The notes below the pieces were generated by a model. It saw only the letters and a list, made by a program, of their open reading frames with translations, was not told the origin of the DNA and made no database searches. 64,000 nt of DNA from Naegleria gruberi. Its lineage: Eukaryota. Location of the stretch: NCBI GenBank assembly GCA_000004985.1, contig GG738895.1; one strand, written 5' to 3'. This document shows, piece by piece, positions 26,780-64,000 of this stretch (position 1 is its first letter; each line of letters opens with the position of its first letter). The position numbers were made by a program, and so were the translations under genes.

Positions 26780-26920
26780 TTTTTTTTTAAATATTAAATA
26801 TTTTAAATACAATAATTGTAATGTCCTTAATATTTAAAGATGTATTTTGTCAAGTGTTGAAGTTCTCTTGAACTTTGATCTTTAAATAGATTTTGAAAAA
26901 AACAATTTTCAAAAAAAAAA

Positions 26921-27832
26921 ATGATTCAATTCTTGGATCCAAATGTTGTGCAATTTGAAATTTTACCTCATCTCGATGATCGATCCGTTATTTCACTCCT
27001 ATCGACATGTAAAATTGTCAATCAGGTAATTTCTATTCCGGACTATATCGAAACAAAATTGAAAATAATGGATGAAGAAATTTTGAGTCAGAAATTCAAT
27101 GAGTTGGAACAAAGTCCAATCCAAGTGAATAGAATTAATGAAATATTTAGATTAGCATATTTGAATTTTAGAGAAGGAATGTTTCAAACTGAAAAGCAAT
27201 TGTTAGGAACAGTTAAAGTGGATGAGGCACAATGTTATGGAAAATTGAAATCTCAATATACTCTTTTGCAGAGATATGTTTTCAAGAATTCCGACAAATT
27301 ATCACCACACTGTAATAGGAGTGTTTTTTCAGGTTCAACAGGATTTTGGAATTCTCATAGTGTTGATTTTAAAATCTCAAAAGAGAATACTGTATATTAT
27401 TGGTCCATTGTCCTTACAGCATTTGATCGTAAGATATCAAATAGCTGGGCAATACTTGTAGGTTTTGCTGAAGAGGATGCTGCCTCATCATTATCTAAAA
27501 GCTGGATTCCATCTGGATATTGTGTCAAATCAAATGCAATACTTGAAAATAGTTATACATCATACACAGAGAGCCTTGTGAATACGGAAGGAGATGTCAT
27601 TGGAATTGAGTGCTATGTCCAAAACAAAACAGTCTATTTCAATGTTTACTCTCCTTCGAGGAACCATCAGACCTTTCAATTCAAATCTGTGAATAGTAAT
27701 ATAGTACCAATGGTATCTATGGTACACTCTCAATCACTCCAATTACTTTCATTACTTCCGTGGGATGGGCATGTGGAAAGCTTGAAATCCTTTGGAGAAT
27801 GTGCAACAAGGATTTGTACAGCAGAAGAATGA
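26921..27832 (+). CDS. F-box / SPRY(B30.2)-domain protein (module gene A)
   Basis: The N-terminal F-box-like motif is VVQFEILPHLDDRSVISLLSTCKIVNQVI. The C-terminal SPRY-like pattern is WSIVL...WAILVGFAEED...GYCVKSN...GDVIGIECYVQNKTVYFNV. About 90% identical to the minus-strand copy at 52502..53413. Confidence 0.7.
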   Translation: MIQFLDPNVVQFEILPHLDDRSVISLLSTCKIVNQVISIPDYIETKLKIMDEEILSQKFNELEQSPIQVNRINEIFRLAYLNFREGMFQTEKQLLGTVKVDEAQCYGKLKSQYTLLQRYVFKNSDKLSPHCNRSVFSGSTGFWNSHSVDFKISKENTVYYWSIVLTAFDRKISNSWAILVGFAEEDAASSLSKSWIPSGYCVKSNAILENSYTSYTESLVNTEGDVIGIECYVQNKTVYFNVYSPSRNHQTFQFKSVNSNIVPMVSMVHSQSLQLLSLLPWDGHVESLKSFGECATRICTAEE

Positions 27833-30393: not shown

Positions 30394-30503
30394 TTTTTTT
30401 AGACGAATGTTTATTGTAATGAAAACTAATCTGTACTGGAAAGTAAATCATAAACATTCTGTTGTCTGTCACAGCTTAGCGAGAGACTTTCTTATTTACC
30501 ATT

Positions 30504-31664
30504 TTAATTAAATATCAAATAATTGTTCAAACTATTAAAAAGTTCTGTATCCGAAGGTTTTGAATTCATTTCTCTAATTAATTTCTTCCAATCTTTACAT
30601 TTAATTTCTTCTGGTTGGTTATTTTTTGTAATTGTCTTGAATTGTTGAACCATTACTTGACCTGCCTTTTCTAGTAAGTTGATTTCTACATTTGGAAGAA
30701 ATTGAACTATAAATGGATTTTTTTCAACTAATTTCTCAATCAATTGTGGATCTTTTGAAAATTTTTCATCAACTATTTTCAAACATTTTGCATCCTTCGC
30801 CACCAATTCCATTTCAAATTCATCCAAATTTGGAATTTCTGAAATAATTACTGATTTGTAAAATCTATAATTCATTCCATTCAAAGAAATTGCTTTCATT
30901 AAAAAATCTCTATTTCCTACAAATTTGGAAGGTATATCATTAATGATATAATCATCCACTTCGACTGCTTTTAATACAACTTGTTCATCATTTTCCCATG
31001 GTTCAATATCTCCAATCCAATATATTGGAAGTCCATATTCGAAACTCTTAATGAGTAAATCCTTATTTTGGAGTTTCCAATCTAGACCTTGATGGGTTGG
31101 GTCAATTTCGATTTGTTTGGAGATGAATTCTCTTGAATTAAGTAGTGATTCGTCAACTCCTGAGAGGACTATTCCAGATTTCATGGCTTGGAGAACAAAA
31201 TCCACATTCGAAAGTAAACTATTGTTTTCTCTAGCCATTTCAGCATAATCCACAACTATATCCGTTTGAAAAACTGTATTCAGCAGTCTCTCCTCAGCAA
31301 TTTCATAAACAAGCTTTCTTTCTTCTTCAGTTAATTGTACTAACTTTCCAATAGCTTCAAAAACTAAACTACCTAATCTATTTCTCATATCCAGAGTCAT
31401 TTCCTTCCAAGCATGTTTCCAAAAATCTTGTCTTTTCAACACTGAGAAGGGAAGATCAAAAAGTAAATTCAATACTAATAAATGGCCATTATTAAATAGT
31501 CTGAAAATCCAATACGAATCTTGTGTGAAAAGTTTTATTAGAAATGGAGCGAACGGAAGAAGTTTTGATAATTGGTGCAAGTGATGATTGCTTTCGTATT
31601 GGTGCGATAGCAAGGCAAGGTCTTGAGATAAATCAAATAATTGGAACGAAACTTGTTCAGACAT
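30504..31664 (-). CDS. DUF4116-repeat protein
   Basis: ATG verified. C-terminal tandem repeats of the form NDEQVVLKAVEVDDYIINDIPSKFVGNRDFLMKAISLNGMNYRF.. match the DUF4116 pattern (nD.e.vl.AV.q.g.al.ya...l.nD.efvl.Av.qnG.al.y). Confidence 0.5.
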   Translation of the reverse strand: MSEQVSFQLFDLSQDLALLSHQYESNHHLHQLSKLLPFAPFLIKLFTQDSYWIFRLFNNGHLLVLNLLFDLPFSVLKRQDFWKHAWKEMTLDMRNRLGSLVFEAIGKLVQLTEEERKLVYEIAEERLLNTVFQTDIVVDYAEMARENNSLLSNVDFVLQAMKSGIVLSGVDESLLNSREFISKQIEIDPTHQGLDWKLQNKDLLIKSFEYGLPIYWIGDIEPWENDEQVVLKAVEVDDYIINDIPSKFVGNRDFLMKAISLNGMNYRFYKSVIISEIPNLDEFEMELVAKDAKCLKIVDEKFSKDPQLIEKLVEKNPFIVQFLPNVEINLLEKAGQVMVQQFKTITKNNQPEEIKCKDWKKLIREMNSKPSDTELFNSLNNYLIFN

Positions 31665-31800
31665 TTTTTTTCATTATAATGATAGTTTCCAATAAGTGAA
31701 GCTTCATTATCTACAAGTAACCTCCATTAATCAACTATTTGAAATCTCAATCGAGGTTGCATTCTGTCTATTCAAAAAATTTAGTTAATTGCCCAAAAGA

Positions 31801-31874
31801 TGCCTCCCTTGGGAATCGAACCCAAGACCTCTGTCTTACTAGGACAGCGCTACTGCCAACTGAGCTAGGAAGGC
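31801..31874 (-). tRNA. tRNA-Thr (anticodon AGU)
   Basis: Hand fold: acceptor GCCTTCC/GGGAGGC with one G-U pair, anticodon stem CTGTC/GACAG, loop CTAGTAA, T arm TTGGG-TTCGATT-CCCAA. No CCA. Short T-run downstream. Confidence 0.85.
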
Positions 31875-32077
31875 TGACATTGAATTGAAATATTTGAGAT
31901 ATTAAGCCTATTAAAGTACAAATTTCTGTCAACACGCTTATTTTTTTGTTTATGAATAGATTTCTACTCATATGCTTATCTTTTGCACATATTAAGTTTT
32001 ACAGCTGTCCTGACCAATGGTTTAAAAAATCTCTTATTAACAAATCTTTCAGATTCCTATTGGTCATTGTAAAAAAA

Positions 32078-33580: not shown

Positions 33581-33611
33581 ACGAGTCAAGCTCAAATAAT
33601 AACTTAAAAAA

Positions 33612-34388
33612 ATGCAACAAGATCAAGAAGATGCCACAATAGTTTTCCTGCATGATTTCGCTTTCTATAACCAAAATTCTTCCTCGGAATACTTGGTCAA
33701 TCTCTTGAAGAAAAACCTGTCAAGGCCAAGGACAAGATTTAACATGAAAAAAGTTGACAGTTTCCAAGATTTGGAATTGAGAGAAGATTTACTACGAGGA
33801 GTGTATGGATATGGATTAAAACAATTATCAGAAATTCAAACTAAATGTATCATGCCAATAATATCATCCGAACCACCACTAGATGTTGTTTGCATTTCAA
33901 GCTCGGGGACTGGAAAGAAAACTGCATTCTCAATTGCTCTTCTCCAAAGAATAGACTTGGATCATCAAGCGTACTCTAAAGGAGCACCTCAAGCTCTAGT
34001 TATTACACCTACGAGAGAAATGAGTCAAGTCATTTCTAATCACATCAAGAAATTGGCTCATTATTTGGATGTCAAAGTATTACCTTTCCATGGAGGAGTT
34101 TCAACCAAAGAAACAATCCAAGCTCTAAATGAAATTCAACATGTAGTTGTTGGAACAAACAAATTGATGGACTTAATCAGGTTTAAAGTTTTGAATTTGA
34201 AATATTTGAAACTGATAATAATTGACAGAACAGGTTGTGATTGGCTCGACATGTATGATCAACAGATTTTGAGAATTATCAATGCATCAAACAAATTCAA
34301 CCTTCAAATATGTGTCTTTGGCGATTCGAGAAATATAGGATCGATTGAACAATATCTGAAAGATCCAATTTATTGTGAACTGGAGTAG
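33612..34388 (+). CDS. eIF4A-like DEAD-box helicase N-terminal RecA domain only, degenerate motifs (module gene B)
   Basis: Q-motif-like FQDLELREDLLRGVYGYGLKQLSEIQ, interrupted P-loop SGTGKKTAF, motif Ia PTREM, motif II IIDR (in place of DEAD), and FGDSRN in the SAT position. The protein ends before helicase domain 2 (258 aa). About 45% identical to 45766..46560. Confidence 0.65.
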   Translation: MQQDQEDATIVFLHDFAFYNQNSSSEYLVNLLKKNLSRPRTRFNMKKVDSFQDLELREDLLRGVYGYGLKQLSEIQTKCIMPIISSEPPLDVVCISSSGTGKKTAFSIALLQRIDLDHQAYSKGAPQALVITPTREMSQVISNHIKKLAHYLDVKVLPFHGGVSTKETIQALNEIQHVVVGTNKLMDLIRFKVLNLKYLKLIIIDRTGCDWLDMYDQQILRIINASNKFNLQICVFGDSRNIGSIEQYLKDPIYCELE

Positions 34389-34683
34389 AACTCGACAATC
34401 AGAGTATGTTGATTTGTATGCATCATGTCAACTCTGCTGCATATTCATTAAGCAATATTGGACCAAGTCAAGTGATATCTTCTCCAATTTTCAATTCCCT
34501 TGGTGAGTCTCAACTCTTCATTGATATTCAATGATTTTCCTTTTAATGGAAGATTATTTGAAGAGATTAATTACTAGAAATTAATTAGTCTGTTTGGAAA
34601 GTTAAGTTACAAAAATTACAGTAAATCTAGTTATTGGTTAAAGTTCTCAATAACGTATCATAATTAAATACTTTACAAAAAAA

Positions 34684-35775
34684 ATGGGAAACAATCAACA
34701 ACCCACATCCCAACCACCAGTTTTAAAAGATGGCGCTCTTCCGAGTGTTAGTACTCCATCATCAGCATGTTATGAACGCACATTAATGCAAGAATATTTT
34801 CCTAATAATTGTAAATTAATTCGAGTTTGTGATCATGATGAAGAAAATCGAAGGAAACAAGAGGAGAATTTGAAGAATTATCGGGAGAAATACTTGTCTC
34901 GATGTAATGGAATATTGGAGAAGATGTTACCTGAGGAAATTATTGTTGAAATTTTGTATTACTTGCCAATGAAGAGTTTGATCAAATTACAAATGGTTTC
35001 AAAGAATTTTCGCTTGTATTGGACTGAACTTCCTGGATTGTGGGATAAATTTTCAGATTATCCCAAAATGATGTATATTCCAATGGTATACGAAAGTATG
35101 AGAAGTAATTTTGGATATTATAATGAATTTAGACAAAAATTAATTAATTTACATGAAAAGCCAACACGAAATTTTGATTTTACTGGATATCAATACAAAG
35201 CCATCGTTTTGGGAGATAAAAAGTGTGGGAAAACCATTTTGCATAACAGAGTCTTCAAAGGCGAACCATTTTCTCAAGAATATGTCTATACGATCGGAGT
35301 AGATTTTTCTACCACAATTTCCAAACAAAACATATACATTCAATCTTGGGATACAGGTGGAGATGAAAGATTTAGAACAATTAATATCAATTTCTTTAGG
35401 GGTATGAAAGGCCACTTTTACTGCTTTGATTTGAATAATCACGAGTCATTTGAAGTAATGAAGGACATTTTTCAAGATTGGAAGAATGTATATCTCAAAG
35501 GTGAAGACCTTAGTTCATATTTTACTAAGATTTCATTCGCATTGGTGGGATTGAAATCAGATTTGGAACGCAAAGTATCAAGAGATGAAATTCATGAATT
35601 CTTGGAAAATATTGAACCACTGAAGGATAAGACTTTGCACACCAGTAGAGTCCAATACTTTGAGTTGAGTTCTAAAGAAGATTCAATTTCAGATTTACTT
35701 TTTCCATTTGTCTATAGTTATCATAATGTAATGGAAATACCAAGGCAATATTCAACAAGTATAAGTGAAATGTAA
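34684..35775 (+). CDS. N-myristoylated F-box + Rab-like small GTPase fusion (module gene C)
   Basis: MGNNQQ.. has Gly2. F-box LPEEIIVEILYYLPMKSLIKLQMVSKNFRLYW. GTPase motifs: G1 GDKKCGKT, switch I YVYTIGVDF (Rab-type TIGxDF), G3 WDTGGDERF (Gln replaced by Asp), G4 LKSD (in place of NKxD), G5 SSKE. No C-terminal prenylation motif. Confidence 0.7.
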   Translation: MGNNQQPTSQPPVLKDGALPSVSTPSSACYERTLMQEYFPNNCKLIRVCDHDEENRRKQEENLKNYREKYLSRCNGILEKMLPEEIIVEILYYLPMKSLIKLQMVSKNFRLYWTELPGLWDKFSDYPKMMYIPMVYESMRSNFGYYNEFRQKLINLHEKPTRNFDFTGYQYKAIVLGDKKCGKTILHNRVFKGEPFSQEYVYTIGVDFSTTISKQNIYIQSWDTGGDERFRTININFFRGMKGHFYCFDLNNHESFEVMKDIFQDWKNVYLKGEDLSSYFTKISFALVGLKSDLERKVSRDEIHEFLENIEPLKDKTLHTSRVQYFELSSKEDSISDLLFPFVYSYHNVMEIPRQYSTSISEM

Positions 35776-45765: not shown

Positions 45766-46560
45766 TTACAAATCTTCTAATAATATTGGATCTCTCAAAT
45801 GTTTTTGAATGAACAATTTGGTATCTCGATTTCTTGCACATCCAAAAATACAAATCTGAAGATTTAACTTTTTGGCAATTTTCACAATTTCCTCAACATG
45901 AGCTTGAAAACCATAATTTTGTACATGACTCATCTCCTCAACAATTAACATTTTCAAATATTTCACATTCAGAATATTGCTCTCTATCAAATCTAACAAT
46001 TTCACTGGCGTTCCCACAACTACATGTTGAATTTCTTGCAGAGCTAGCTCTGCAGACCGCATTTGACCTCCATATATCCCAAATACTTTGACACTCATAA
46101 ATTTCGCAAAGGATGCTATAATATGAGAGAGACTTATCGCCATTTCCCTGGTCGGTACAATCACCAATGCTTGAGGGGCACCTTTCGAATATAAATCATG
46201 ATTCAGATCAATTCTTTCAAGAAGGGCAAGTGAAAACCCAACTGTTTTACCAGTTCCAATTTTAGATGTGGACACAACATCAACTGGTGGATAGGATGAA
46301 ATAATTGGCATGATCAACTTTTTTTGCAATTCTGTCATTTCTTTTTTACCATCACTATAAAAACCAGAAAGTAAATTCGCGCGTAAATTTAAATCTTCAA
46401 AAGTTTCAATCTTTTTCATGTTGAATTTTGGTCGTGGAATTGTGATTTGTTTTTTGAAAAGTTTGATCAAGTGTGAAAATTCCGAATTTATATTCGAATT
46501 GCTGTGTATGTCTGTTAGAAGGAGGCGTGTAACACTTTCGTATGTTTCTGCTTGGTTCAT
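45766..46560 (-). CDS. eIF4A-like DEAD-box N-terminal RecA domain only, degenerate (module gene B')
   Basis: FEDLNLRANLLSGFYSDG..ELQ (Q-motif-like), intact P-loop GTGKT, PTREM, motif II IVEE (in place of DEAD), FGCARN. Ends before domain 2. Paralog of 33612..34388. Confidence 0.65.
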   Translation of the reverse strand: MNQAETYESVTRLLLTDIHSNSNINSEFSHLIKLFKKQITIPRPKFNMKKIETFEDLNLRANLLSGFYSDGKKEMTELQKKLIMPIISSYPPVDVVSTSKIGTGKTVGFSLALLERIDLNHDLYSKGAPQALVIVPTREMAISLSHIIASFAKFMSVKVFGIYGGQMRSAELALQEIQHVVVGTPVKLLDLIESNILNVKYLKMLIVEEMSHVQNYGFQAHVEEIVKIAKKLNLQICIFGCARNRDTKLFIQKHLRDPILLEDL

Positions 46561-46596
46561 TTTTTTTTGAAAGATTTTGTTGAGGAAGAATCATTT

Positions 46597-52501: not shown

Positions 52502-53413
52502 TCATTCTTCTGCTGTACAAATCTTTGTTGCACATTCTCCAAAGGATTTCAGGCTTTCCACATGTCCATCCCACGGAAGTAATGAAAGTAATTGGAGTGA
52601 TTGAGAGTCTACCAGAGATACCATTGGTACTATATTACTATTAACATATTCGAATTGAAAAGTCTGATGGTTCCTCGAAGGGGAGTAAACATTGAAATAG
52701 ACTGTTTTGTTTTGGATATAACATTCAATTCCAATGACATCTCCTTCAGTATTCACACTGTGCTCTGAGTATAATTTATAACTACTTGTAACTGTTGCAT
52801 TCGATTTGATACAATAGCCATATAGAATCCATTTATCATATAGTGATGAGACAGCATCCTCTTCAGCAAAACCTACAATTATTGCCCAGCCATTTGATAT
52901 CTTCCAATCATAAGCTGTAAGTACTATGGACCAATAATATATAGTATTCTCTTTTGAGATTTTAAAATCAACACTATGAGAATTCCAAAATCCTGTTGAA
53001 CCTGAAAAAACACTCCTATTACAGTGTGGTGATAATTTGTTAGAATTCTTGAAAACATATCTCTTTAAAAGAGTATATTGAGATTTCAATTTTCCATAAC
53101 ATTGTGCCTCATCCACTTTAACTGTTCCTATCAATTGCTTTTCTGTTTGGAACATTCCTTCTCTAAAATTCAAATATGCTAATCTAAATATTTCATTAAT
53201 TCTATTCACTTGGATTGGACTTTGTTCCAACTCATTGAATTTCTGACTCAAAATTTCTTCATCCATTATTTTCAATTTTGTTTCGATATAGTCCGGAATA
53301 GAAATTACCTGATGGACAATTTTACATGTCGATAGGAGTGAAATAACGGATCGATCATCGAGATGAGGTAAAATTTCAAATTGCACAACATTCGGATCCA
53401 AGAATTGAATCAT
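52502..53413 (-). CDS. F-box / SPRY-domain protein (module gene A')
   Basis: About 90% identical to 26921..27832. The N-terminal 130 aa are nearly identical and the SPRY region is more diverged. The first ATG at 53413 gives MIQFLDPN.. (the track start is TTG). Confidence 0.7.
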   Translation of the reverse strand: MIQFLDPNVVQFEILPHLDDRSVISLLSTCKIVHQVISIPDYIETKLKIMDEEILSQKFNELEQSPIQVNRINEIFRLAYLNFREGMFQTEKQLIGTVKVDEAQCYGKLKSQYTLLKRYVFKNSNKLSPHCNRSVFSGSTGFWNSHSVDFKISKENTIYYWSIVLTAYDWKISNGWAIIVGFAEEDAVSSLYDKWILYGYCIKSNATVTSSYKLYSEHSVNTEGDVIGIECYIQNKTVYFNVYSPSRNHQTFQFEYVNSNIVPMVSLVDSQSLQLLSLLPWDGHVESLKSFGECATKICTAEE

Positions 53414-53581
53414 TTTTTTTTTGAAAATTGTTTTTTCATAGATCAAAGTTCGTTTTTTGTTTTTTACAATGAACAGTTTTTTGTTATAATTTTTAAATAG
53501 TGAATGGAAAAATTACAACAATTTAAGGAGCTAGCCCAAATGTTTACAACATAACACAATAATTTGAAAGTTTTTAAAAAA

Positions 53582-55099: not shown

Positions 55100-56123
55100 T
55101 CATTTTATTCTTGGTAATATTGTTAAAATTATATTTAAAAAGCCTTCAGTTTCAATATTGTTTGCATTGATATTGAGATCTGTTAACTGAGATAAGTGAC
55201 TCAATGATTTGGCACCTTCAGCACCAATATTATTTGTACTGATATTCAAAGTGGTCAATTTGCCTAGTTGACTGATATACATTGCTCCAGTGTTTCCAAT
55301 TTTAGAATAACTAATATTCAAGTCTGTTAATTGTGACATTTCGGATATAATTTTTGCCCCTTCATCTCCAATATAATTACAACTAATATTCAAATTATTT
55401 AAATTTTCCATTTGACTAATGAACTTGACTCCAACTACAGACAAATTTGGACAATTCGAAACATCAAGCTTTGTTAACTGTTTAATTTCACTAATTTTCT
55501 CTACAGATCTATCATTAAGATCAGAATATCTTACACGAAGTGATTTCAAAGTTTTTGATTGTGAAATAACATTCATCTGAAATGTTTCATCATTTTCTAA
55601 TGAAAATGCTGAATAACTCAAATCGAGTGAAATCAAATTTTTCATTCCAAATACAGAAAAAGATCCTGAATATCCAATACGATTGCTACATATATTCAAA
55701 CTAGTCAAGTTTGCCATTGTACTGATATGTTTAGCTCCTTCATCTCCAATTGAATTATAACTCAGATCAAGATTGGTCAATTGAGTCAAATTTTGAGAAA
55801 TTAATTGAGCTCCTTTCGTCCTAATTCTACAAACACTATTCCCAACAAGTTTCAATTCAACAATATTCCCAATAATTCCAGATTTAACAATATTTTCCAC
55901 AATTTTATCCTCAACCTCCAAATCAACAGAAAGTTTTGCCCTATTTTTGATTACTTCATGCCAATTACGAGAAATTAATAAACAACTTTGTATAATCATT
56001 GAAGAATCCAAAAAGGTAAGAATTTCATAACAAATATCATCAGGAAATACTTGATTTCGAAATTATTATATAAAAAATTACATAATTTTAGCAATTACAC
56101 TCACAATCAGGATTGGATTTCAT
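55100..56123 (-). CDS. F-box + RNI-type LRR protein; 2 exons (about 56105..56123, 55100..56049)
   Basis: The track ORF starts at TTG inside an F-box. An upstream mini-exon ATGAAATCCAATCCTGATT, followed by a GTGAGT donor and a 55-nt intron ending ATCAAG, restores MKSNPDLFPDDICYEILTFLD..LLISRNWHEVI (a complete F-box). The body has 24-aa RNI-type LRRs (LTDLNISYSKIGNTGAMYISQLGK). Confidence 0.65.
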
Positions 56124-56411
56124 TCCGATAGGTGCATCAATGGATTGTTTCATCTTTTTCCTATTAGAAAAATTATCATCATTTTCCCTTCTTTTTGTTT
56201 TTGACATTTTTTTAAATTTCAAATTAATTTGAAAATTGGAAAATCAAAACATTGTAAACGATTTAATTGGCGGACCATCTCACTTAATAATCAACTCAAA
56301 ACATCCACCTCCCCGACTGCTAATAAGCAGGGATGTTTAAGCGGACTATTGGTCCACCATTCGAATAGACATCAACAAGAATCGAATTTATGTAAACTCA
56401 TCAAAAAAAAA

Positions 56412-57143
56412 ATGCACGACTGTTGTAAGCAAGGACACATTCACACAGGTACTCCAACAGGTACACTCACTCAAATTTCCGGAAGAGAAACCTATGTGAA
56501 AAAACATTCGAATAGTAATGGAAAGGCCATTTTATTTATTCATGATGCTTTCGGATTGCCATTCATTAATAATCAACTCTTGGTTGATACCTTCTCTGAA
56601 GAAGCACAAGCTGATGTTTATTTACCTGATTTTTTCAATGGTGATGGTGTTCCAATTCAAGTCCTGTCAAACATGTCAAGTTTTGATTTTAATCCTTGGA
56701 GAGCTAGAAATGGACGTGATAAATTCCCAATTATTGAAAGTTATACAAGAGCACTGAAAGAACAGGAAGGAATTAAAAAACTTGTAGTAATTGGATTTTG
56801 TTGGGGTGGTTGGGGTTCCATTCAATTAGGTCAATTGGATGATTTGGTGGATGGAGTTGTTTTGGCTCATCCATCAATGCTTGAAATTCCATCTGATATT
56901 GAGGCATTGAAAAAGCCAAGTTTATTCATTTGTGCTGAGGTTGACCATGCATTCTCAGAGGAAGCACGTTTATTATCTCAATCAATTTTGGAAAATAAGG
57001 AAATGGATGCAACATTTAAATTGTGGAATGGAGTGAGACATGGATTTGCAGTTCGTTTTGATACGGAGGATAAGATTGCTGCTCAAGCTGCTGAACAAGC
57101 AAAGGATGAGGCAGTTAAATTCTTTAAGAGAATACTTCAATAA
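56412..57143 (+). CDS. Dienelactone hydrolase family protein (AIM2-like)
   Basis: MHDCCKQGHIHTGTPTG.. (the Cys-Cys N-terminus is typical of this family). Also GFCWGGW around the nucleophile region, AHPSML, and HGFAVR. The first ATG is 56412. Confidence 0.75.
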   Translation: MHDCCKQGHIHTGTPTGTLTQISGRETYVKKHSNSNGKAILFIHDAFGLPFINNQLLVDTFSEEAQADVYLPDFFNGDGVPIQVLSNMSSFDFNPWRARNGRDKFPIIESYTRALKEQEGIKKLVVIGFCWGGWGSIQLGQLDDLVDGVVLAHPSMLEIPSDIEALKKPSLFICAEVDHAFSEEARLLSQSILENKEMDATFKLWNGVRHGFAVRFDTEDKIAAQAAEQAKDEAVKFFKRILQ

Positions 57144-57322
57144 TTATTTAATACTTATTAGAAATTTATTATATGTAAAGTAACCATTGATATTTAAGTA
57201 TTTACGGAAATGCTTAATATTTGGACCCTTAACTACGGCATTGACAATAAATCAAAAACAAGATGAAATCATCATTGGTTGTGAAACACTTTATTAAGGG
57301 TAATTAAGCAAACGTTAACGTA

Positions 57323-57395
57323 GCCCGTCTAGCTCAGTCGGTAGAGCGCAAGGCTCTTAACCTTGTGGTCGTGGGTTCGACCCCCACGGTGGGCG
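57323..57395 (+). tRNA. tRNA-Lys (anticodon CUU)
   Basis: Acceptor GCCCGTC/GGTGGGC. D arm GCTC-AGTCGGTAG-AGCG. Anticodon stem CAAGG/CCTTG, loop CTCTTAA. T arm GTGGG-TTCGACC-CCCAC. T-run follows. Confidence 0.9.
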
Positions 57396-57695
57396 TTTCC
57401 TTTTAATTTTATTATCTTTGATTTTAGCCAATCAACTGAGGAAAAATCAACTCTTCATAAGGCCATCCTAATTCGAATCAGGTACATAGTTTGCACAAGA
57501 GAAAAAAGTATTATTTTAGAACATGACGGAACATCAAGAATTGTTGTAACACAACATATTAATTGTTTCCTGTTGGTATGGCTTGTCTGGTATCGTTTCT
57601 TGTGTCATATTAATCAGAAAAAACTACCAATATTTTCAGCATCAAATAATCAATTATCATCATCATGATGGAGGTAAAACAAGAAGAAGGTTGGT

Positions 57696-59141
57696 ATGTT
57701 CTCGAGAACAAGGGTTATTTTCAAAATAATAATAATAATAATAATTAATGAATTGCTAATAGAGAATATTATATTTTCGGATGATGTTTGTTTTGAAATT
57801 ATTTCCATGATTGATGATTCGTGGTTTATTTTGAATAATTGTTCTTTAATTTCAAAACAATGGTTTAATGTGATCAAGGATCGTTCAAAACTTGTTATTC
57901 AATTTAAAAAAAAATTAACAGAAAAAAGAGTTGAATTATTAATGAAAAGTCAATTCATGAACAGTATTGTAAATGTTAAGTTTTCTTTTGGGTTGCTTAA
58001 CTCTTCAGATAAACTTAAATTCATAAGTGAAATGAAACATTTAACATCACTTGATATTGCTGACAATCAAATTGGTGATGAGGGATCTAAATTCATAAGT
58101 GGAATGAAACATTTAACATCACTTAATATAGATCGCAATCAAATTGGTGTAGAAGGAGCCAAACTCATAAGTGGAATGAAATCATTAATATCACTTAGTA
58201 TTGGTGATAATCAAATTGGTGTAGAAGGAGCCAAACTCATAAGTGGAATGAAACATTTAACATCACTTGATATAAATCGCAATCAAATTGGTGTAGAAGG
58301 AGCCAAATCAATAAGTAGAATGAAACAATTAACATCACTTAATATATATTACAATCAAATTGGTGCTGAGGGAGCCAAATCAATAAGTGGAATGAAACAA
58401 TTAACATCACTTGATATTGGTGGAAATCAAATTGGTGTAGAAGAATCCAAATACATAAGTGAAATGAAACAATTAACATCACTTGATATATATAACAATC
58501 AAATTGGTGTAGAAGGAGCCAAATCAATAAGTGGAATGAAACAATTAACATCACTTAATATTGGTTTCAATCGAATTGGTGTAGAAGGATCCAAACTCAT
58601 AAGTGAAATGAAACAATTAACATCACTTAATATTGGTTCCAATGAAATTGGTGTAGAAGGGTCCAAATTCATACCTGAAATGAAACATTTAACATCACTT
58701 AATATATATTACAATGAAATTGGTGATGAAGGATCCAAATACATAAGTGAAATGAAACAATTAACATCACTTGATATATATTACAATGAAATTGGTGTGG
58801 AAGGAGCCAAATACATAAGTGAAATGAAACAATTAACATCACTTGGTATTAGTGATAATCAAATTGGTGTAGAAGGAGCCAAATTCATAAGTGAAATGAA
58901 ATTATTAACATCACTTGATATTGCTGACAATCAAATTGGTGATGAGGGATCTAAATTCATAAGTGAAATGAAATCATTAACATCGCTTAATGTTAATTCC
59001 AATCAAATTGGTGATGAGGGAGCCAAACTTATAAGTGGAATGAAACAATTAACATCACTTAAAATATATTACAATCAAATTGGTGAAACTTTATTAATGT
59101 CTGTTATATCAATAACAGCTGAGACCAAATCTTTAGACTAA
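57696..59141 (+). CDS. F-box-like + RNI-type LRR protein built from about 15 near-identical 24-aa repeats
   Basis: The N-terminal F-box-like motif is IFSDDVCFEIISMIDDSWFILNNCSLISKQWFNVI. It is preceded by a poly-Ile stretch encoded by an (ATA)6 microsatellite. The body is MKHLTSLDIADNQIGDEGSKFISG repeated with few changes. Confidence 0.7.
   Translation: MFSRTRVIFKIIIIIIINELLIENIIFSDDVCFEIISMIDDSWFILNNCSLISKQWFNVIKDRSKLVIQFKKKLTEKRVELLMKSQFMNSIVNVKFSFGLLNSSDKLKFISEMKHLTSLDIADNQIGDEGSKFISGMKHLTSLNIDRNQIGVEGAKLISGMKSLISLSIGDNQIGVEGAKLISGMKHLTSLDINRNQIGVEGAKSISRMKQLTSLNIYYNQIGAEGAKSISGMKQLTSLDIGGNQIGVEESKYISEMKQLTSLDIYNNQIGVEGAKSISGMKQLTSLNIGFNRIGVEGSKLISEMKQLTSLNIGSNEIGVEGSKFIPEMKHLTSLNIYYNEIGDEGSKYISEMKQLTSLDIYYNEIGVEGAKYISEMKQLTSLGISDNQIGVEGAKFISEMKLLTSLDIADNQIGDEGSKFISEMKSLTSLNVNSNQIGDEGAKLISGMKQLTSLKIYYNQIGETLLMSVISITAETKSLD
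58020..59090 (+). repeat. 72-bp tandem repeat array (about 15 copies) encoding the LRR units of the 57696..59141 gene
   Basis: Direct reading shows a reiterated unit AAACAATTAACATCACTTGATAT..AATCAAATTGGTGTAGAAGGAGCCAAA..ATAAGTGGAATG with greater than 85% nucleotide identity between neighbours. Confidence 0.8.
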
Positions 59142-59287
59142 CTAAGATTCTTTGTAGGGATTTGGGTTTGTTGATATTAGGCACCGTACATTGTGTAAAG
59201 CTTCATTTATTTAACTACCTCAATATCTTAAAGTGTGGAGTATTGTGATTGAAACGTTGAAAGATGAGTTTACATAATTCAAACAAT

Positions 59288-60240
59288 TCACTTACAGATA
59301 TCTTCAAGATGGGATCTTGGAGAGAAGATCAGTGGATGCTTTTGCATGTCAATGTAGAGTAAGGAACGATTGGTGCTCATTTCTGGGAATTCCTTTTCCT
59401 CTAAGGAAAGTTTGAAATGTCTGACAGTGTTGACAATTGACATGCAAAGTTCTAAGGTTGCAATTCTACTACCTGGGCATTTTCTTGCCTTAATTCGCAA
59501 GTTATTTGAAGTAATTGATAGAAAACTTACACCAACACCAAATGGACTGTTTACAAATGAACTCTTCATTGCCAATGGTGAATTTCTTTCATGTCTTTCT
59601 GGAATGAATTCTTGAGCTCGTGGCACAAACTCTTCACTCAAACAAGCACGTCTTTGGAGTGCAATAACTGTTGTACCCTTTGGAATATTTTATCCTCCCA
59701 GTTCTGTATCGTTATTGAGTATTCTTGCCAAAATCCAAAGGGATTGAGGCGTAAAACTTCTTCCACAAAGTTTTTAGTGAGCTTTAGTTTCTTGAATTGC
59801 TCTGCATTTACTAATAGACCGTTCTCTGAAGTAACCTCGTCTAAATTTGGCTCTCCAAATACCTCTAATAGTAGTAAAGTTTTTTTTGGTAATCTGGATG
59901 ATGAGCTAATCTGTACATGACATGACTCATCATTGTCATTGTAATGTCCATTGCAGCTTGAAGGAATGAATTCATAACTGTTCATTCTTTGAACGTTCCA
60001 TTAGCAGTTCATACAATCTTGGCTTTTCGCTTGGGTTGACCTTAAACCTGTTCATTACATAATTTGTACATATTCGAATGATTTTTCACAGGTAAATTCC
60101 ATTCTCTTGTATTCTTTTGTTTTAAAATATTGATACATGGATGGTTTTGTCAATAATCTGGATCTTGTGTTGGTTCTAAGTATTTAATTAATCTTCTTAC
60201 ATTCAATTGACTCAGGAGTTACGACTTGATCTTGGAATTC
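59288..60240 (-). pseudogene. Cytochrome P450 3'-fragment (K-helix to heme-binding loop only), likely truncated remnant
   Basis: ExxR region EEVLRLNP. Meander/PERF ..EFIPERH... A 42-nt in-frame GTAAGT..TTAAG intron must be removed to restore the heme loop: FGVG|ARKCPGSRIATLEL matches FGxGxRxCxG. A frameshift separates the ..HSKDVL and SEEFVP segments. No I-helix or N-terminal half exists, because the upstream gene (60321..) ends immediately 5' on the same strand. Confidence 0.5.
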
Positions 60241-60320
60241 TGGTTTCATGGCAATGTTAAACAATTGCCTCGTCTCTTGCCATGGTTCCTCATATAGCAT
60301 TTTGCAAAGCAAATGGATGT

Positions 60321-61418
60321 TTATAGCATGGTTTTTAGAGTGGCAACAGCATAGAGGAATGGAAAGAGAAGGTCATCATCAGAGCACTCTTCTTTGGAGC
60401 TTAATTCAAAATATTGAACTTTGGTTGTGTGAATTGTTTTTTGTTGAGGCTCTGGCTCGACCATTTTTAGAAAATTGTAAATTTCAAGTCTTGTTACTTG
60501 ATGATCGAGATCTGATTTCAATCCGAGTAAGAGGAAACATCTATCATTGATATTGTAATCTGAAATATCTTTGACTGTCATTTCGTGATAAATTTCAATC
60601 ATTTCCTCAAATGATTTATGACTATTCAAATCAAAACAATACACAAAAACATTAGCTCTCGAATAAACAGATTTGAATAGCGATAGATATGTTTGATTTC
60701 CACATGTATCCCAAATCTTGAATGCAAATTCCGTCCCACTTCCATAAAGGTAATGCTTGTCAATTACTGGGAAAGTTATTGAGGGTGTATAATTTTCCGA
60801 AAATGGTAATTGATTAAAAGCTCTATCAATCAAAGTGGATTTACCACACCCTGATGACCCAACAAATATGTATTGGGCACATTGAGGCAATTCAACATCC
60901 TCATCTATTACAAATCTCTTCAGCAAGACATTTTTAACATTTTCATAACTTTCCATATCAGAAAACATGTACAACATTGGACTTTTTCTCCTCAAATCCT
61001 TCCACAGAACTTCAAATCTGGTCCAATACATTAAAAATCTCTTTGAAACTCGTTGCATTCTCCCTATACTTTCCATATCCAAAAATTGTAAAATGTGTAA
61101 AATTATTTCATGAGGAAAATTCGTCAACCAACCATCCTTCTCCTCACCCTGATTGAAATACTCATCATTGCCTCCATATCCTCTCCTAATTCCATTAAAA
61201 ATTCCTATCGGAAGCAATTCTACATCCGAAACAATAGTAGAAAGAATAGATTTCCTCTTGAATCCTCTTGGTAATTCCAACACGGGAAAATGTAGGGATT
61301 TTCCTGTAGAATAAAGTAAATTTTCAGATTGTTCACGGGAGGGGATTTTATTTTCATCTCTTGCTTGGTGATTCAGAGATGATGATGAGGGCGTCTCTGT
61401 TGATGTTTGTTGTCCCAT
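60321..61418 (-). CDS. N-myristoylated F-box + Rab-like small GTPase fusion (module gene C')
   Basis: MGQQTS.. has Gly2. F-box FPHEIILHILQFLDMESIGRMQRVSKRFLMYW. G1 GSSGCGKST, G3 WDTCGNQTY, G4 LKSD, G5 SSKE. About 35% identical to 34684..35775 with the same domain order. Confidence 0.7.
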   Translation of the reverse strand: MGQQTSTETPSSSSLNHQARDENKIPSREQSENLLYSTGKSLHFPVLELPRGFKRKSILSTIVSDVELLPIGIFNGIRRGYGGNDEYFNQGEEKDGWLTNFPHEIILHILQFLDMESIGRMQRVSKRFLMYWTRFEVLWKDLRRKSPMLYMFSDMESYENVKNVLLKRFVIDEDVELPQCAQYIFVGSSGCGKSTLIDRAFNQLPFSENYTPSITFPVIDKHYLYGSGTEFAFKIWDTCGNQTYLSLFKSVYSRANVFVYCFDLNSHKSFEEMIEIYHEMTVKDISDYNINDRCFLLLGLKSDLDHQVTRLEIYNFLKMVEPEPQQKTIHTTKVQYFELSSKEECSDDDLLFPFLYAVATLKTML

Positions 61419-61521
61419 TTTTTTATGTTGATTGGTTTACAAAATATGAAATAGTTATGATTGTAATAGTCCAGAAAAGATTTTCAATCACAATATCGAT
61501 TATTGAATTTATTGGTACAAT

Positions 61522-62392
61522 TTATCGTTGATCTACAGTTGCTCTTTGAATCAACATGATATCATCCTCATCATCTTCCATTCCTTCATCATCCAAATCC
61601 TGATTACTAATCAATACATATTTTGATTCAACAATAGGTGTTGCACCAATATGAGCTTCATGAGATTTACCCTCAATTGATGTGGAACTTTCTTCCTTAT
61701 TTCTGAAAATGTGAATCAAATAACTACCAATAATATACATTGGAATGCAACCTAAAATACATAATCCACACGAAACACCCAAGAATGCAGCTCCCATTTG
61801 CAATAATCCACTCTTTGTTGCATCATTTTGGTCATTAACACTTGATTTAATGGTTGGATTTGAAATTTGAACAATTAATGCAAGACTCACTGAACCCAAT
61901 CCAATCAATAACAAACTACTCAATCCAATCCAAAAACACAAATGCAATGAACAATACAAATTATAAGTTCTCTGTTTTTGAAACCAGTGACGAAGTAAAA
62001 TGTGTTGATCTTCATTCATTTGTGGATTGCTCTTCAACATTTCACGTCTCTGTTTCAAAGTTCTTTCCTGTGAGAAGAGCATGAGAGAAAATACGAAACA
62101 AGCAATTCCACAAAAAGTTAGAGAACCAGCTGTAGATGTTACATCATTTTGATTCGGAGAAGAAACGGGACGAAATAGTTTGTGATTCTAATAAAAATAA
62201 TTGATCATCTACGAACCTGTTAAATGTTGAGTAACGACAAACGCAAGCGGTCCACTTCTTGTTATTGAATAATTCTCCAAAGTCATTTCCAATGCAAAGT
62301 TCGTCACTCCGATACCAAACATTAATAAACCAGCCAACAACAAGAAGATTTTGGTTGCTAAAAACAAGTATCGTCTTCTCATTTTTTCTTAT
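61522..62392 (-). CDS. Four-transmembrane-helix membrane protein; 2 exons (62227..62392, 61522..62139)
   Basis: Exon 1 is MRRRYLFLATKIFLLLAGLLMFGIGVTNFALEM..QHLT with a GTTCGT donor. An 87-nt intron ends CATCTACAG. Exon 2 continues in the track ORF frame (AGSLTFCGIACFVFSLMLFSQERTL..). Four hydrophobic helices and an acidic C-terminal tail. Confidence 0.5.
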
Positions 62393-63092
62393 GTAATTAT
62401 TGAAATTGGTTTGACAAGTGATGCCTCCACTGAAATCCCAACTCAACTGTAGTGTGTCATTATTCTTAATATTTTGAACATATTTCAAGCGCCAAAATCG
62501 AACCATTAAGCAATTAAAAAGTTCATCAACGCGCTAAGGAATCTTCGCAAACCGCAGATAAAAAATTATCCAAACACATTTTCTCTCAAATAAGGAATTT
62601 TTTCGAGTTTTTGCCAAACAAGTAGAGTTTGATTCAAGTTGGAAGTTGTGATAACCTGTAGTCTAACATTCATTTCCCGCATTTTTTCAACTCGACAGAA
62701 GAACAGTGTTGTTCCTTTCATGACTTTGTTACTCACACAATTTTCCTTCTGAAAAAGTTCAAATTATTAATGCTAGGAGTAACGACACTCAACCTAGATA
62801 ACAAATAACCTTCTCCTTTATATATTATCCAATATGCTCAATGACCTTTTTCCAAGCCAATATTGTTGTCGTTGGAAGATGAGACAAATACCAGTGCGCT
62901 TTGCGAAAAAGTCATCACACAGTGGTTTTGAAAATCGAATCTTTTTCCACTCACAAAAAAAACAACACAAACCCGAAAATACCACTTGGTTGCTTCATAC
63001 AATATTCATTGCTGCTGCTTCAGTTTTGTTGATATTTGAATCAATCACTCTTTGTTGTTTATTTTAATAACTATACTATTGTACTATAAACT

Positions 63093-64000
63093 ATGGCCCC
63101 TACAAAGGAAAATAATTGGGCAGGCGTTGATCCAAGCCTTCTCAACCAAAAAGATTACTTGTGGACCAAGACTGATGAACCTCATTGGAATAGAAAGAAG
63201 GAATTGTTGAAGAAGTATCCACAAATCAAGGAACTCTACAGTATTGATCCAATGACCAAGTGGAAGATTCTCCTCCTTGTTCTTATCCAATTTGCCACTT
63301 GTTATTATGTAGTAACTGCTAAACCTGCTTGGTACATTGTCCTTGCTTGTATGTGGGTTATTGGTGGTACTTGTAACACTAGTTTGACTGTTGGTATCCA
63401 CGAATTGACTCATGGTATGTTTGATCATTATTCTTTATTGTTAAATTTTAAAAATCATATGCATAATTATTCAATTTAATTATCTAATCTTTCAGGTGTT
63501 GGATTTGAAACTTTGGAATACAATTACATGATGGCAATTTTTGGTAACCTTCCACTTGCTGTTCCTTTTGCCATGTCCTTCAAACGTTACCATCATGAAC
63601 ACCACGTTTATCAAGGAGTTTTGGGTCTTGATACCGACATCGGAACCCCTATAGAAGCAAAATTCTTCAACACTCGTTACACTAAATTCCTCCACGTTCT
63701 CTTCATGGTCTTTTTCTATGCTTTGAGACCATTGTTCCTCCTCCCAAAAATTCCAAACAAGTGGGAATTAATTAACCAAGCTGTTATTTTCTCATTCGTC
63801 GGTGTTGTAACCTATTTCTTCGGTTGGATGTCTATCATCTATTTCTTGGGCTCTGACTTTTTCGGATTGGGTTTGCACCCATTGGCTGGTCACTTTATTT
63901 CTGAAGTAAGTTTTTCATCATGATGATAGTAATATTTACAACAATTATTAGCACTTTGTGACAAGACCAGGACAAGAAACATACAGTTATTATGGTATTG
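63093..64000 (+). CDS. Sphingolipid delta4-desaturase (dihydroceramide desaturase, DEGS1-like), 5' partial within window; exons 63093..63414, 63496..63905, 63952..>64000
   Basis: DYLWTKTDEPHWNRKKELLKKYPQIKELYSIDP.. parallels human DES1 [33 protein letters not shown]. It has His boxes HELTHG and HHEHH, the PLAGHFISE..HFVTRPGQETYSYYG segment (compare HPISGHFIAEHYMF..GHETYSYYG), and introns of 81 and 46 nt (GTATGT..TTTCAG; GTAAGT..TTATTAG). Confidence 0.8.

What the first reader, a model, noticed from the sequence alone, without database searches (positions are those of the whole stretch)
59288..60320. P450 3' remnant abutting the stop codon of GTPase paralog C'; 42-nt in-frame intron inside the heme-binding loop
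Only the K-helix, PERF and Cys-loop portion of a P450 is present. It begins directly downstream (same strand) of C' and contains one frameshift. The heme loop FGxGxRxCxG is reconstituted only by splicing a 42-nt GTAAGT..AG intron, so this piece was once functional. The geometry suggests that insertion or duplication of the C' gene destroyed an ancestral P450, which would date and orient the module duplication.
Basis: inference. Interest (0 to 1): 0.55.

Follow-up and report, generated by a model that had tools for sequence, protein, structure and literature searches.

The report
Decaying P450 pseudogene beside a GTPase
This stretch of the Naegleria gruberi genome is a dead, unannotated copy of a cytochrome P450 gene that has lost its front third and is riddled with frameshifts, which makes it an ordinary pseudogene and gives no dating for a gene duplication.

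Summary
The window is Naegleria gruberi NEG-M. On the minus strand, 60303-59294 is a real P450 relic. The unedited ORF hits Pfam p450 at 2.9e-11 and the frame-corrected reading at 1.2e-38. It belongs to a P450 family found only in Heterolobosea, with four intact annotated paralogs elsewhere in NEG-M.

Removing it restores FGVGARKCPG. Paralogs carry an intron at the same site (L002) or two codons away (an intact paralog).

The relic is larger and more damaged than described. It runs from the C-helix WxxxR motif to the C-terminus. It has six frame changes, a TAA nonsense codon and deletions of about 55 codons, about 7 codons, 7 nt and 42 nt. The N-terminal ~163 family positions are absent from the whole window. 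At least two frameshifts recur in an independent assembly of a close strain, so they are not sequencing errors.

Saturated synonymous divergence against low non-synonymous divergence shows a long functional history and a recent death.

The idea that insertion of GTPase C' killed the gene is unsupported. No 5' half lies beyond C', C and C' are only 36% identical, and the relic itself shows repeated deletion. Deletional decay halted at the GTPase coding sequence is the simpler account. Interest is low.

The parts
59294..60303 (-). Whole P450 pseudogene. It spans family-HMM positions 164-559 of 562, with gaps. It is unannotated in NEG-M.
   Evidence: Family HMM against the three minus-strand frames, Pfam and tblastn with seven full-length family members. 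No NEG-M protein model overlaps it.
60211..60303 (-). Most 5' surviving segment, KMLYEEPWQETRQLFNIAMKPEFQDQVVTPE. It contains the C-helix WxxxR motif and matches HMM positions 164-194.
   Evidence: 30.7 bits, E=1.6e-11; 53-61% identity to P0014, P0164 and P0168.
60156..60215 (-). Short segment in a different frame, LSQLNVRRLIKYLEPTQDPD. It is followed by loss of about 55 codons relative to the paralogs.
   Evidence: tblastn against L002p and the alignment A2.
59981..60180 (-). Middle segment, RLLTKPSMYQYFKTKEYK...NPSEKPRLYELLMERSKNE. It is split by a +2 nt frameshift near 60066.
   Evidence: HMM positions 265-332.
59874..59984 (-). I-helix segment, TVMNSFLQAAMDITMTMMSHVMYRLAHHPDYQKKLY. It is bounded by frameshifts at about 59980 and 59873. 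Both frameshifts are also in the related-strain contig L001.
   Evidence: HMM positions 340-376, E=1e-14.
59728..59871 (-). Segment carrying the K-helix ExxR motif, LLEVFGEP...NFVEEVLRLNPFGF. It ends at a 7-nt deletion found only in NEG-M.
   Evidence: HMM positions 379-426.
59690..59692 (-). In-frame TAA nonsense codon. The related strain has TAT (Tyr), and Tyr is invariant in the family.
59531..59727 (-). Segment from ARILNNDTELGG*NIPKG through EFIPERHERNSPL to PFGVG. It carries the PERF-type motif (PERH) and the first half of the heme loop.
59489..59530 (-). 42-nt phase-0 intron, GTAAGT...AG, in frame and without stop codons, lying between FGVG and ARKCPG.
   Evidence: L002 has an intron at the identical site. 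An intact paralog has one two codons away.
59291..59488 (-). Last exon, ARKCPGSRIATLEL...PRSHL, followed by the non-native tail EDICK*. A 42-nt deletion at about 59307 removed the native end TDYCKSQKNL*.
60321..61418 (-). Intact F-box plus Ras/Rab-like GTPase 'C''. It is XP_002672819.1 (UniProt D2VT30).
   Evidence: Homology to paralog C runs to residue 357, which is nt 60348.
60304..60347 (-). 44-nt junction interval that contains the breakpoint. It holds the last 8 GTPase codons, the stop codon and a 17-nt spacer, and cannot be assigned to either gene.

Best explanation
This is an unprocessed, non-functional pseudogene of a P450 family restricted to Heterolobosea, in Naegleria gruberi NEG-M.

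Shown steps:
1. The gene was a full-length, intron-containing, functional P450 for most of its history.
2. It was inactivated shortly before NEG-M split from a close strain, which differs by about 1% at the DNA level.
3. It has been eroding neutrally since then, mainly by small and large deletions.

Inferred steps:
4. Loss of the 5' third, the promoter and the spacer upstream is most simply one or more deletions of the same kind.
5. Those deletions stopped at the end of the GTPase coding sequence because anything further would damage a gene under selection.
6. By default, the relic now makes up the 3' flank of the GTPase gene, and probably its 3' UTR.

It makes no P450 enzyme.
For: Identity and family:
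- The window is NEG-M.
- Pfam p450 hits at E=2.9e-11 on the raw ORF and 1.2e-38 on the corrected reading.
- An exhaustive HMMER search finds a tight family of 15 representatives at E<1e-30, then a gap to 1e-20. The named members looked up come from N. gruberi, N. fowleri and Willaertia; the rest are unnamed metagenome proteins.
- Four intact NEG-M paralogs of 533-583 aa exist.

Disablement:
- There are six frame changes, one TAA, and deletions of about 55 codons, about 7 codons, 7 nt and 42 nt.
- Family-HMM positions 1-163 are absent from the whole window on both strands.

Not sequencing error: the orthologous contig L001 comes from an independent metagenome assembly. It shares the frameshifts at about 59980 and 59873.

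Ongoing neutral decay:
- NEG-M alone has the 7-nt deletion, the TAA and the 42-nt deletion.
- L001 alone has PERH changed to PERY at an invariant His.
- The 7 substitutions in 738 nt split into 5 non-synonymous, 1 nonsense and 1 synonymous.
- That 0.95% divergence falls within the strain background of 0.6-2.6%.

Once functional: pN is 0.23 against a saturated pS of 0.77 versus L002, and the motifs are intact.

Unprocessed: it retains the heme-loop intron.

Unannotated: no NEG-M protein model matches it.

Deletion model: the relic contains at least four other deletions. The C/C' homology runs to within 44 nt of the first P450 residue.
Against: - No contig from a relative covers the junction, so deletion versus rearrangement cannot be told apart directly. 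L001 starts at window position 60054, and no ortholog of C' was found in any collection.
- Interspecies synteny ends just beyond C'. The membrane-protein and desaturase genes are conserved neighbours in N. lovaniensis and in L090/L091, but neither C' nor a P450 follows them there. This leaves room for a rearrangement.
- There are no expression data, so use of the relic as a 3' UTR is only an inference.
Confidence: 0.8

Rival explanations
1. The C' GTPase gene was inserted or duplicated into an intact P450, cutting off its 5' part, so the relic dates and orients the C/C' module duplication.
For: - C' ends 17 nt before the P450 homology starts, on the same strand.
- Synteny with N. lovaniensis and with L090/L091 stops at C'.
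Against: - No 5' P450 fragment lies beyond C' or anywhere else in the window.
- C and C' are 36% identical, so they diverged long ago. The relic died recently.
- An inserted copy would have had to be trimmed exactly at its stop codon, with no 3' flank of its own.
- The paralog pairs in the window are 89%, 48% and 36% identical and are not collinear.
- No target-site duplication is present.
Confidence: 0.1
2. A chromosomal rearrangement (translocation or inversion) had one breakpoint inside the P450 and the other just after the C' coding sequence. It joined two previously unlinked regions and killed the P450 in one step.
For: - There is a synteny break next to C' relative to N. lovaniensis and L090/L091.
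- A perfect 14-nt inverted repeat brackets the GTPase-plus-relic pair, at 59241-59254 and 61482-61495.
- In N. fowleri, another family member is split by an inversion.
Against: - The interspecies break cannot be placed at the C'/P450 junction, because nothing left of the membrane-protein gene matches in the relatives.
- The inverted repeat is near chance level: 3 of 100 shuffles give 2 hits. The related strain has a 2-nt insertion in one arm.
- The repeat flanks the pair as a whole, not the junction.
Confidence: 0.18
3. A dead-on-arrival partial duplicate. Only the 3' two-thirds of a paralog were ever copied here, so the sequence never functioned at this locus.
For: The 5' end is missing, and gene fragments of this family occur elsewhere, for example P0020 in N. 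fowleri.
Against: - The closest paralog is only 61% identical at the protein level. Synonymous sites are saturated while pN is 0.23.
- A never-functional copy that old would not keep ExxR, PERH, FGxGxRxCxG and the splice sites.
Confidence: 0.04
4. A functional P450 gene whose apparent lesions are tiny introns or assembly errors.
For: The family does use introns of 42-43 nt.
Against: - The frameshift sites have no GT..AG intron that would restore the frame.
- There is an in-frame TAA at an invariant Tyr.
- About 55 codons and the N-terminal 163 positions are missing.
- Two frameshifts are reproduced in an independent assembly.
Confidence: 0.01

Closest known systems
Intact N. gruberi NEG-M paralogs of the same heterolobosean P450 family: XP_002672098.1, XP_002672174.1, XP_002670200.1 and XP_002674083.1. 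Related members are N. fowleri XP_044561246.1 and Willaertia magna KAL9646489.1.
   Same: - Best-alignment identities are 41-51%.
- The family motifs are the same: WxxxR, xxDIT in the I-helix, KLKLTKxFVEEVLR, EFIPERHEK and PFGxGARKCPGSR.
- They also carry an intron in or next to the heme loop.
   Different: - Those proteins are 533-600 aa and have a long N-terminal extension and a PGPK hinge.
- The window copy lacks family positions 1-163 and about 55 internal codons, and has six frame changes and a nonsense codon.
Metagenome contig L001 (ENA ERZ929261, k127_2737), the orthologous pseudogene in a close N. gruberi-like strain.
   Same: - It differs by only 7 substitutions in 738 ungapped nt over window positions 60054-59307.
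- The 42-nt intron is identical.
- The frameshifts at about 59980 and 59873 are the same.
- The same LRR gene lies downstream.
   Different: - L001 still has the 7 nt, the Tyr codon and the native C-terminal 42 nt that NEG-M lost.
- It has its own PERH-to-PERY change.
- It does not reach the junction with the GTPase.
Animal CYP3A and the mitochondrial-clan enzymes CYP11A1 and CYP24A1, which are the nearest solved structures.
   Same: The P450 fold aligns over the full length at the sequence level, with E=3e-25 for CYP3A5 and 1e-18 to 1e-19 for CYP11A1 and CYP24A1.
   Different: The relationship is only distant. The query for this comparison was a composite of paralogs, not the relic itself. 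No functional inference is possible.
Classical unprocessed (duplicated or unitary) pseudogenes in compact protist genomes.
   Same: It retains an intron, carries frameshifts and a nonsense codon, shows a deletion bias, has a neutral substitution pattern and is not annotated.
   Different: Nothing differs in kind. The only unusual feature is that the 5' erosion reaches to within 17 nt of a neighbour's stop codon.

Membership tests
Cytochrome P450 (Pfam PF00067) | A significant match to the family profile. | tested here: met
   The raw ORF gives E=2.9e-11 (43.3 bits against a cut-off of 22.8). The corrected reading gives E=1.2e-38.
Cytochrome P450 (Pfam PF00067) | The heme-binding loop FxxGxRxCxG with the axial Cys. 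| tested here: met
   FGVG|ARKCPG appears after removal of the 42-nt intron at 59530-59489.
Cytochrome P450 (Pfam PF00067) | The K-helix ExxR motif and a PERF-type motif. | tested here: met
   EEVLR lies in the 59728-59871 segment and FIPERH lies upstream of the heme loop.
Cytochrome P450 (Pfam PF00067) | A complete, uninterrupted coding sequence that includes the N-terminal third. | tested here: not met
   Family-HMM positions 1-163 and about 195-264 are absent. There are six frame changes and one TAA. It is a relic of a family member, not a functional member.
Heterolobosean P450 family (N. gruberi XP_002672098 group) | It groups with this family ahead of all other P450s. | tested here: met
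   In a search of 1.84 billion representatives, 15 hits reach E<1e-30 and the next is at 1e-20. The named members looked up are Naegleria or Willaertia and the rest are unnamed metagenome proteins. The custom family HMM scores 157 bits on the last segment.
Unprocessed pseudogene | Disabling mutations that are real and not assembly artefacts. | tested here: met
   Two frameshifts are shared with the independent assembly L001. The other lesions are specific to one lineage and each lineage has its own.
Unprocessed pseudogene | It retains an intron and has no poly(A) tract, so it is not a retrocopy. | tested here: met
   The 42-nt intron is retained at a site where the family has introns. No A-tract follows the relic.
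Unprocessed pseudogene | A neutral pattern of recent substitutions. | tested here: inconclusive
   The split is 6 non-synonymous or nonsense against 1 synonymous, and the divergence falls within the strain background. This is consistent with neutrality, but only 7 changes are available.
Unprocessed pseudogene | No translated product, and any transcription is only incidental. | not testable with these tools
   No RNA-seq or proteome data were available.
   No N-terminal P450 match exists in 60304-64000 or anywhere else in the window.
   C and C' are 36% identical over 274 aa.

The most novel reading that the evidence does not exclude
The GTPase-plus-relic pair may be a relocated cassette. It is bracketed by a perfect 14-nt inverted repeat (59241-59254 and 61482-61495) and sits at an interspecies synteny breakpoint. 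On this reading, one rearrangement both truncated the P450 and fused its remains to the F-box GTPase gene. The relic would now supply the GTPase's 3' UTR and polyadenylation region, and possibly its last eight codons and stop codon. That would make it an exapted pseudogene and not mere debris.
Probability: 0.1. Interest if true: 0.35.

Novelty: new member of a known kind. Interest (0 to 1): 0.15.

Why it matters
The main value is for annotation and as a caution:
- It adds an unannotated pseudogene to the small P450 complement of N. gruberi.
- It shows this heterolobosean P450 family gaining and losing copies. At least one other copy in the related strain, and one in N. fowleri, also look broken.
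- It gives a clean example of deletion-driven pseudogene erosion in a compact protist genome.
- It shows that the relic cannot be used to time the C/C' GTPase duplication.

It bears on no long-standing question.

Tried and rejected
- **Orthologous junction in a close strain.** The only orthologous contig, L001 (1464 nt), starts at window position 60054. A search with the GTPase returned only the query itself, so the junction could not be compared.
- **JGI metagenome scan.** A scan with a family alignment gave 80 loci, all at or below 38% identity over the best segment and none from Naegleria.
- **NEG-M genomic DNA outside the window.** It is not retrievable. The look-up of the GTPase found nothing on record. 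The missing 5' third and the NEG-M orthologs of L002 and L003 therefore could not be searched genome-wide.
- **Synteny via the desaturase gene.** N. lovaniensis and L090/L091 keep only the membrane-protein and desaturase pair. This does not resolve the junction.
- **N. fowleri P450 loci (L085, L086).** They share no neighbours with this window.
- **Special constraint on the relic.** I considered whether its roughly 99% identity to L001 meant constraint. I rejected this because background divergence between the strains is 0.6-2.6% and the substitutions are mostly non-synonymous.
- **Structured RNA.** I considered this and rejected it. Rfam finds only the tRNA-Lys in 56000-64000.
- **MAFFT DNA alignment A3.** It misaligned the 5' part, so I relied on protein-to-DNA dynamic programming and the family HMM for that region.
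- **Literature.** Searches found nothing on Naegleria P450 pseudogenes.

Full report
**Source and setting.** Seven complete ORFs of the window are exact matches to Naegleria gruberi NEG-M proteins on a 333,733-nt scaffold. The ORF at 60321-61418 (minus strand) is XP_002672819.1 (UniProt D2VT30), annotated 'small GTPase'. It has an F-box and a Ras/Rab-like domain. Its only paralog in the window is 'C' at 34684-35775 (XP_002672750.1), which is 36% identical over 274 residues. The window is 34% G+C and gene-dense.

- The unedited stop-to-stop ORF 59291-59689 (minus strand) matches Pfam p450 at E=2.9e-11.
- A frame-corrected 324-residue reading matches at E=1.2e-38 over profile positions 171-449 of 462.
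- The 42 nt at 59530-59489 begin with GTAAGT and end with AG. They are in frame and contain no stop codon.
- They sit exactly between FGVG and ARKCPG, so their removal rebuilds the heme loop FGVGARKCPG.
- The first residue that aligns to a family HMM is at 60303. That is 17 nt after the last base of the GTPase stop codon, at 60321.

**What family is it?** An exhaustive HMMER search of 1.84 billion representatives gave 15 proteins at E<1e-30, followed by a gap to 1e-20.
- The named members looked up come from N. gruberi, N. fowleri and Willaertia magna. The others are unnamed metagenome proteins.
- NEG-M has four intact annotated paralogs: XP_002672098, XP_002672174, XP_002670200 and XP_002674083, of 533-583 aa.
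- In best local alignments the relic is 61% identical to a metagenomic paralog (L002), 51% to N. fowleri XP_044561246, and 41-49% to the NEG-M paralogs.
- The nearest solved structures are CYP3A5/3A4 (about 1e-25), CYP11A1 and CYP24A1 (about 1e-18 to 1e-19). That search used a composite of paralogs as the query.
- No NEG-M protein model overlaps the relic, so it is unannotated.

**Anatomy.** I used tblastn with paralogs, a protein-to-DNA alignment that allows frameshifts and introns, and a family HMM run without filters on all three minus-strand frames from 64000 to 59250. The surviving pieces are:

| Family-HMM positions | Window coordinates | Content |
|---|---|---|
| 164-194 | 60303-60211 | C-helix WxxxR motif |
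| weak match | 60215-60156 | short piece in another frame |
| 265-332 | 60180-59981 | middle segment |
| 340-376 | 59984-59874 | I-helix |
| 379-426 | 59871-59728 | ExxR |
| 428-559 | 59731-59294 | PERH, heme loop, C-terminus |

The lesions are:
- Six frame changes, at about 60210, 60157, 60066, 59980, 59873 and 59730.
- One TAA at 59692-59690, replacing an invariant Tyr.
- Loss of about 55 codons at about 60157.
- Loss of about 7 codons at about 59980.
- A 7-nt deletion at 59730.
- A 42-nt deletion at about 59307, which removed the native C-terminus and stop codon.

HMM positions 1-163 are found nowhere in the window on either strand.

**Are the lesions real, and how old are they?** Contig L001 comes from an unrelated metagenome assembly (ENA ERZ929261). 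It is the ortholog from a very close strain. It covers window positions 60054-58663 and has the same LRR gene downstream.
- L001 shares the frameshifts at about 59980 and 59873 and has the identical 42-nt intron.
- L001 still has the 7 nt, the TAT codon and the 42 nt that NEG-M lacks.
- L001 has its own PERH-to-PERY change at an invariant His.
- In 738 ungapped nt there are 7 substitutions (0.95%): 5 non-synonymous, 1 nonsense and 1 synonymous.
- Two other contigs of the same strain differ from the window by 0.6% and 2.6%.

The relic therefore evolves at about the background rate with a neutral-looking pattern. It was already dead before the two strains split, and it has kept decaying in both.

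**Was it once functional?** Against the L002 coding sequence (265 aligned codons), pN is 0.23 while pS is 0.77, which is saturated. The lineage was therefore under purifying selection for nearly all of its divergence.

**The intron.**
- L002 has an 85-nt GTAAGT..AG intron at exactly the same site and phase.
- L092 is the strain's ortholog of the intact NEG-M gene XP_002672174. It has a 77-nt intron two codons upstream, at FG|VG.
- N. fowleri XP_044561246 has a 127-nt intron in the Ser codon before LPFG.
- L003 has one at IP|FG, and also a 43-nt intron in the I-helix.

An intron in or beside the heme loop is therefore a family trait, and 42-43 nt is a working intron size here. Retention of the intron makes this an unprocessed pseudogene.

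**How was the 5' end lost?** Homology between C and C' continues to C' residue 357 (nt 60348), through the shared motif LLFPF(L/V)Y. P450 homology begins at 60303. The breakpoint therefore lies within 44 nt (60304-60347).

The insertion model predicts a 5' P450 half beyond C'. None exists. It also ties the event to the C/C' duplication, but C and C' are 36% identical, whereas the relic died recently. The three paralog pairs in the window are 89%, 48% and 36% identical and are not collinear. There is therefore no single module duplication to date or orient.

The relic shows at least four other deletions. I therefore infer that the spacer and the 5' third were lost in the same way. Erosion would have halted at the coding sequence of a neighbour under selection.

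A rearrangement cannot be excluded. In N. lovaniensis (L089) and an unidentified relative (L090, L091), the membrane-protein gene (61522-62382) and the desaturase gene (63093 onward) are conserved neighbours. Nothing resembling C', the P450 or any other window gene follows them there. No available contig from a relative spans the junction.

**Verdict.** This is an ordinary, previously unannotated, unprocessed P450 pseudogene. The sequence-level observation is partly confirmed. The evolutionary story built on it is not supported. Interest is low.

Noticed in passing
window 59241-59254 and 61482-61495: A perfect 14-nt inverted repeat (TATTGTGATTGAAA) brackets the GTPase-plus-relic pair. These are the only two copies in the window. 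Three of 100 shuffles reach two hits. The related strain (L001) has a 2-nt insertion in the left arm. It is probably chance, but it could mark an inversion or relocation.
   Followed up: partly
window 61418-61522; L089 8618-11417; L090 6499-9466; L091: The membrane-protein gene and the sphingolipid desaturase gene are conserved divergent neighbours in N. lovaniensis and an unidentified relative. Synteny with the window ends immediately beyond the membrane-protein gene, so C' and the relic sit next to an evolutionary breakpoint.
   Followed up: partly
L003 2370-2470; L002 545-700: Other family copies in the related strain also look defective. L003 reads FG*RFCIG, a stop codon inside the heme loop, and then diverges. 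L002 has a TAG right after DITM in the I-helix, and no canonical splice rescues the frame. Neither has a close annotated NEG-M ortholog. This suggests several unannotated P450 pseudogenes in N. gruberi.
   Followed up: partly
L086 7105-7728 (-) and 8004-8771 (+): In N. fowleri a member of the same P450 family is split. Residues of about 66-266 lie on one strand and 323-581 on the other. It looks like a gene broken by an inversion, and it is annotated as two separate small proteins.
   Followed up: no
window 59489-59530; L002 1101-1185; L092 2196-2272; L085 9617-9743; L003 2376-2430: The intron in the Cys-loop region sits at four slightly different positions among paralogs: before LPFG, at IP|FG, at FG|VG and at FGxG|A. 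This pattern suggests intron sliding, or repeated gain, within about 8 codons.
   Followed up: partly
P0014, P0164, P0022, P0162, P0167, P0019 and L003 (N-terminal 60-100 residues): Intact family members have long, presequence-like N-terminal extensions in place of a membrane anchor. They share a conserved Cys-Pro-Tyr/Phe motif about 20-30 residues before the PGPK hinge. This resembles a heme-regulatory CP motif. These may be P450s targeted to mitochondria outside animals.
   Followed up: no
L088 1-1694 versus window beyond 31895: The related-strain contig matches the window over 30494-31895. It then continues into genes that look bacterial or phage-derived (Glyco_hydro_108 and SH3_3), not the window's tRNA-Thr. 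It is either a chimeric metagenome contig or a strain-specific insertion.
   Followed up: no
window 26897-27829 / 52505-53512; 33603-34385 / 45769-46590; 34654-35772 / 60324-61436: There are three paralog pairs in inverted orientation with very different identities. An SPRY-like pair is 89% identical, a DEAD-box helicase N-terminal pair is 48%, and the F-box GTPase pair is 36%. Their order is not that of a simple inverted segmental duplication.
   Followed up: partly
window 57696-59141: An F-box-like LRR gene is built of about 24-residue (72-nt) tandem units. It aligns to the related strain in many 72-nt registers at only 80-87% identity, so the array evolves much faster than its surroundings.
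   Followed up: no
window 60321-61418 and 34684-35775: Both GTPases combine an N-terminal Met-Gly start, an F-box and a Rab-like domain. The G4 motif of that domain reads LKSD, where NKxD is the usual form, and there is no C-terminal prenylation cysteine. This is an unusual architecture. The word-indexed search found no homolog of C' outside NEG-M.
   Followed up: no
L004 1-110 versus 185-295: The contig that carries the intron-less paralog P0004 starts with an inverted copy of its own coding sequence. This is likely an assembly hairpin artefact. The absence of the intron may mean the contig derives from transcripts.
   Followed up: no
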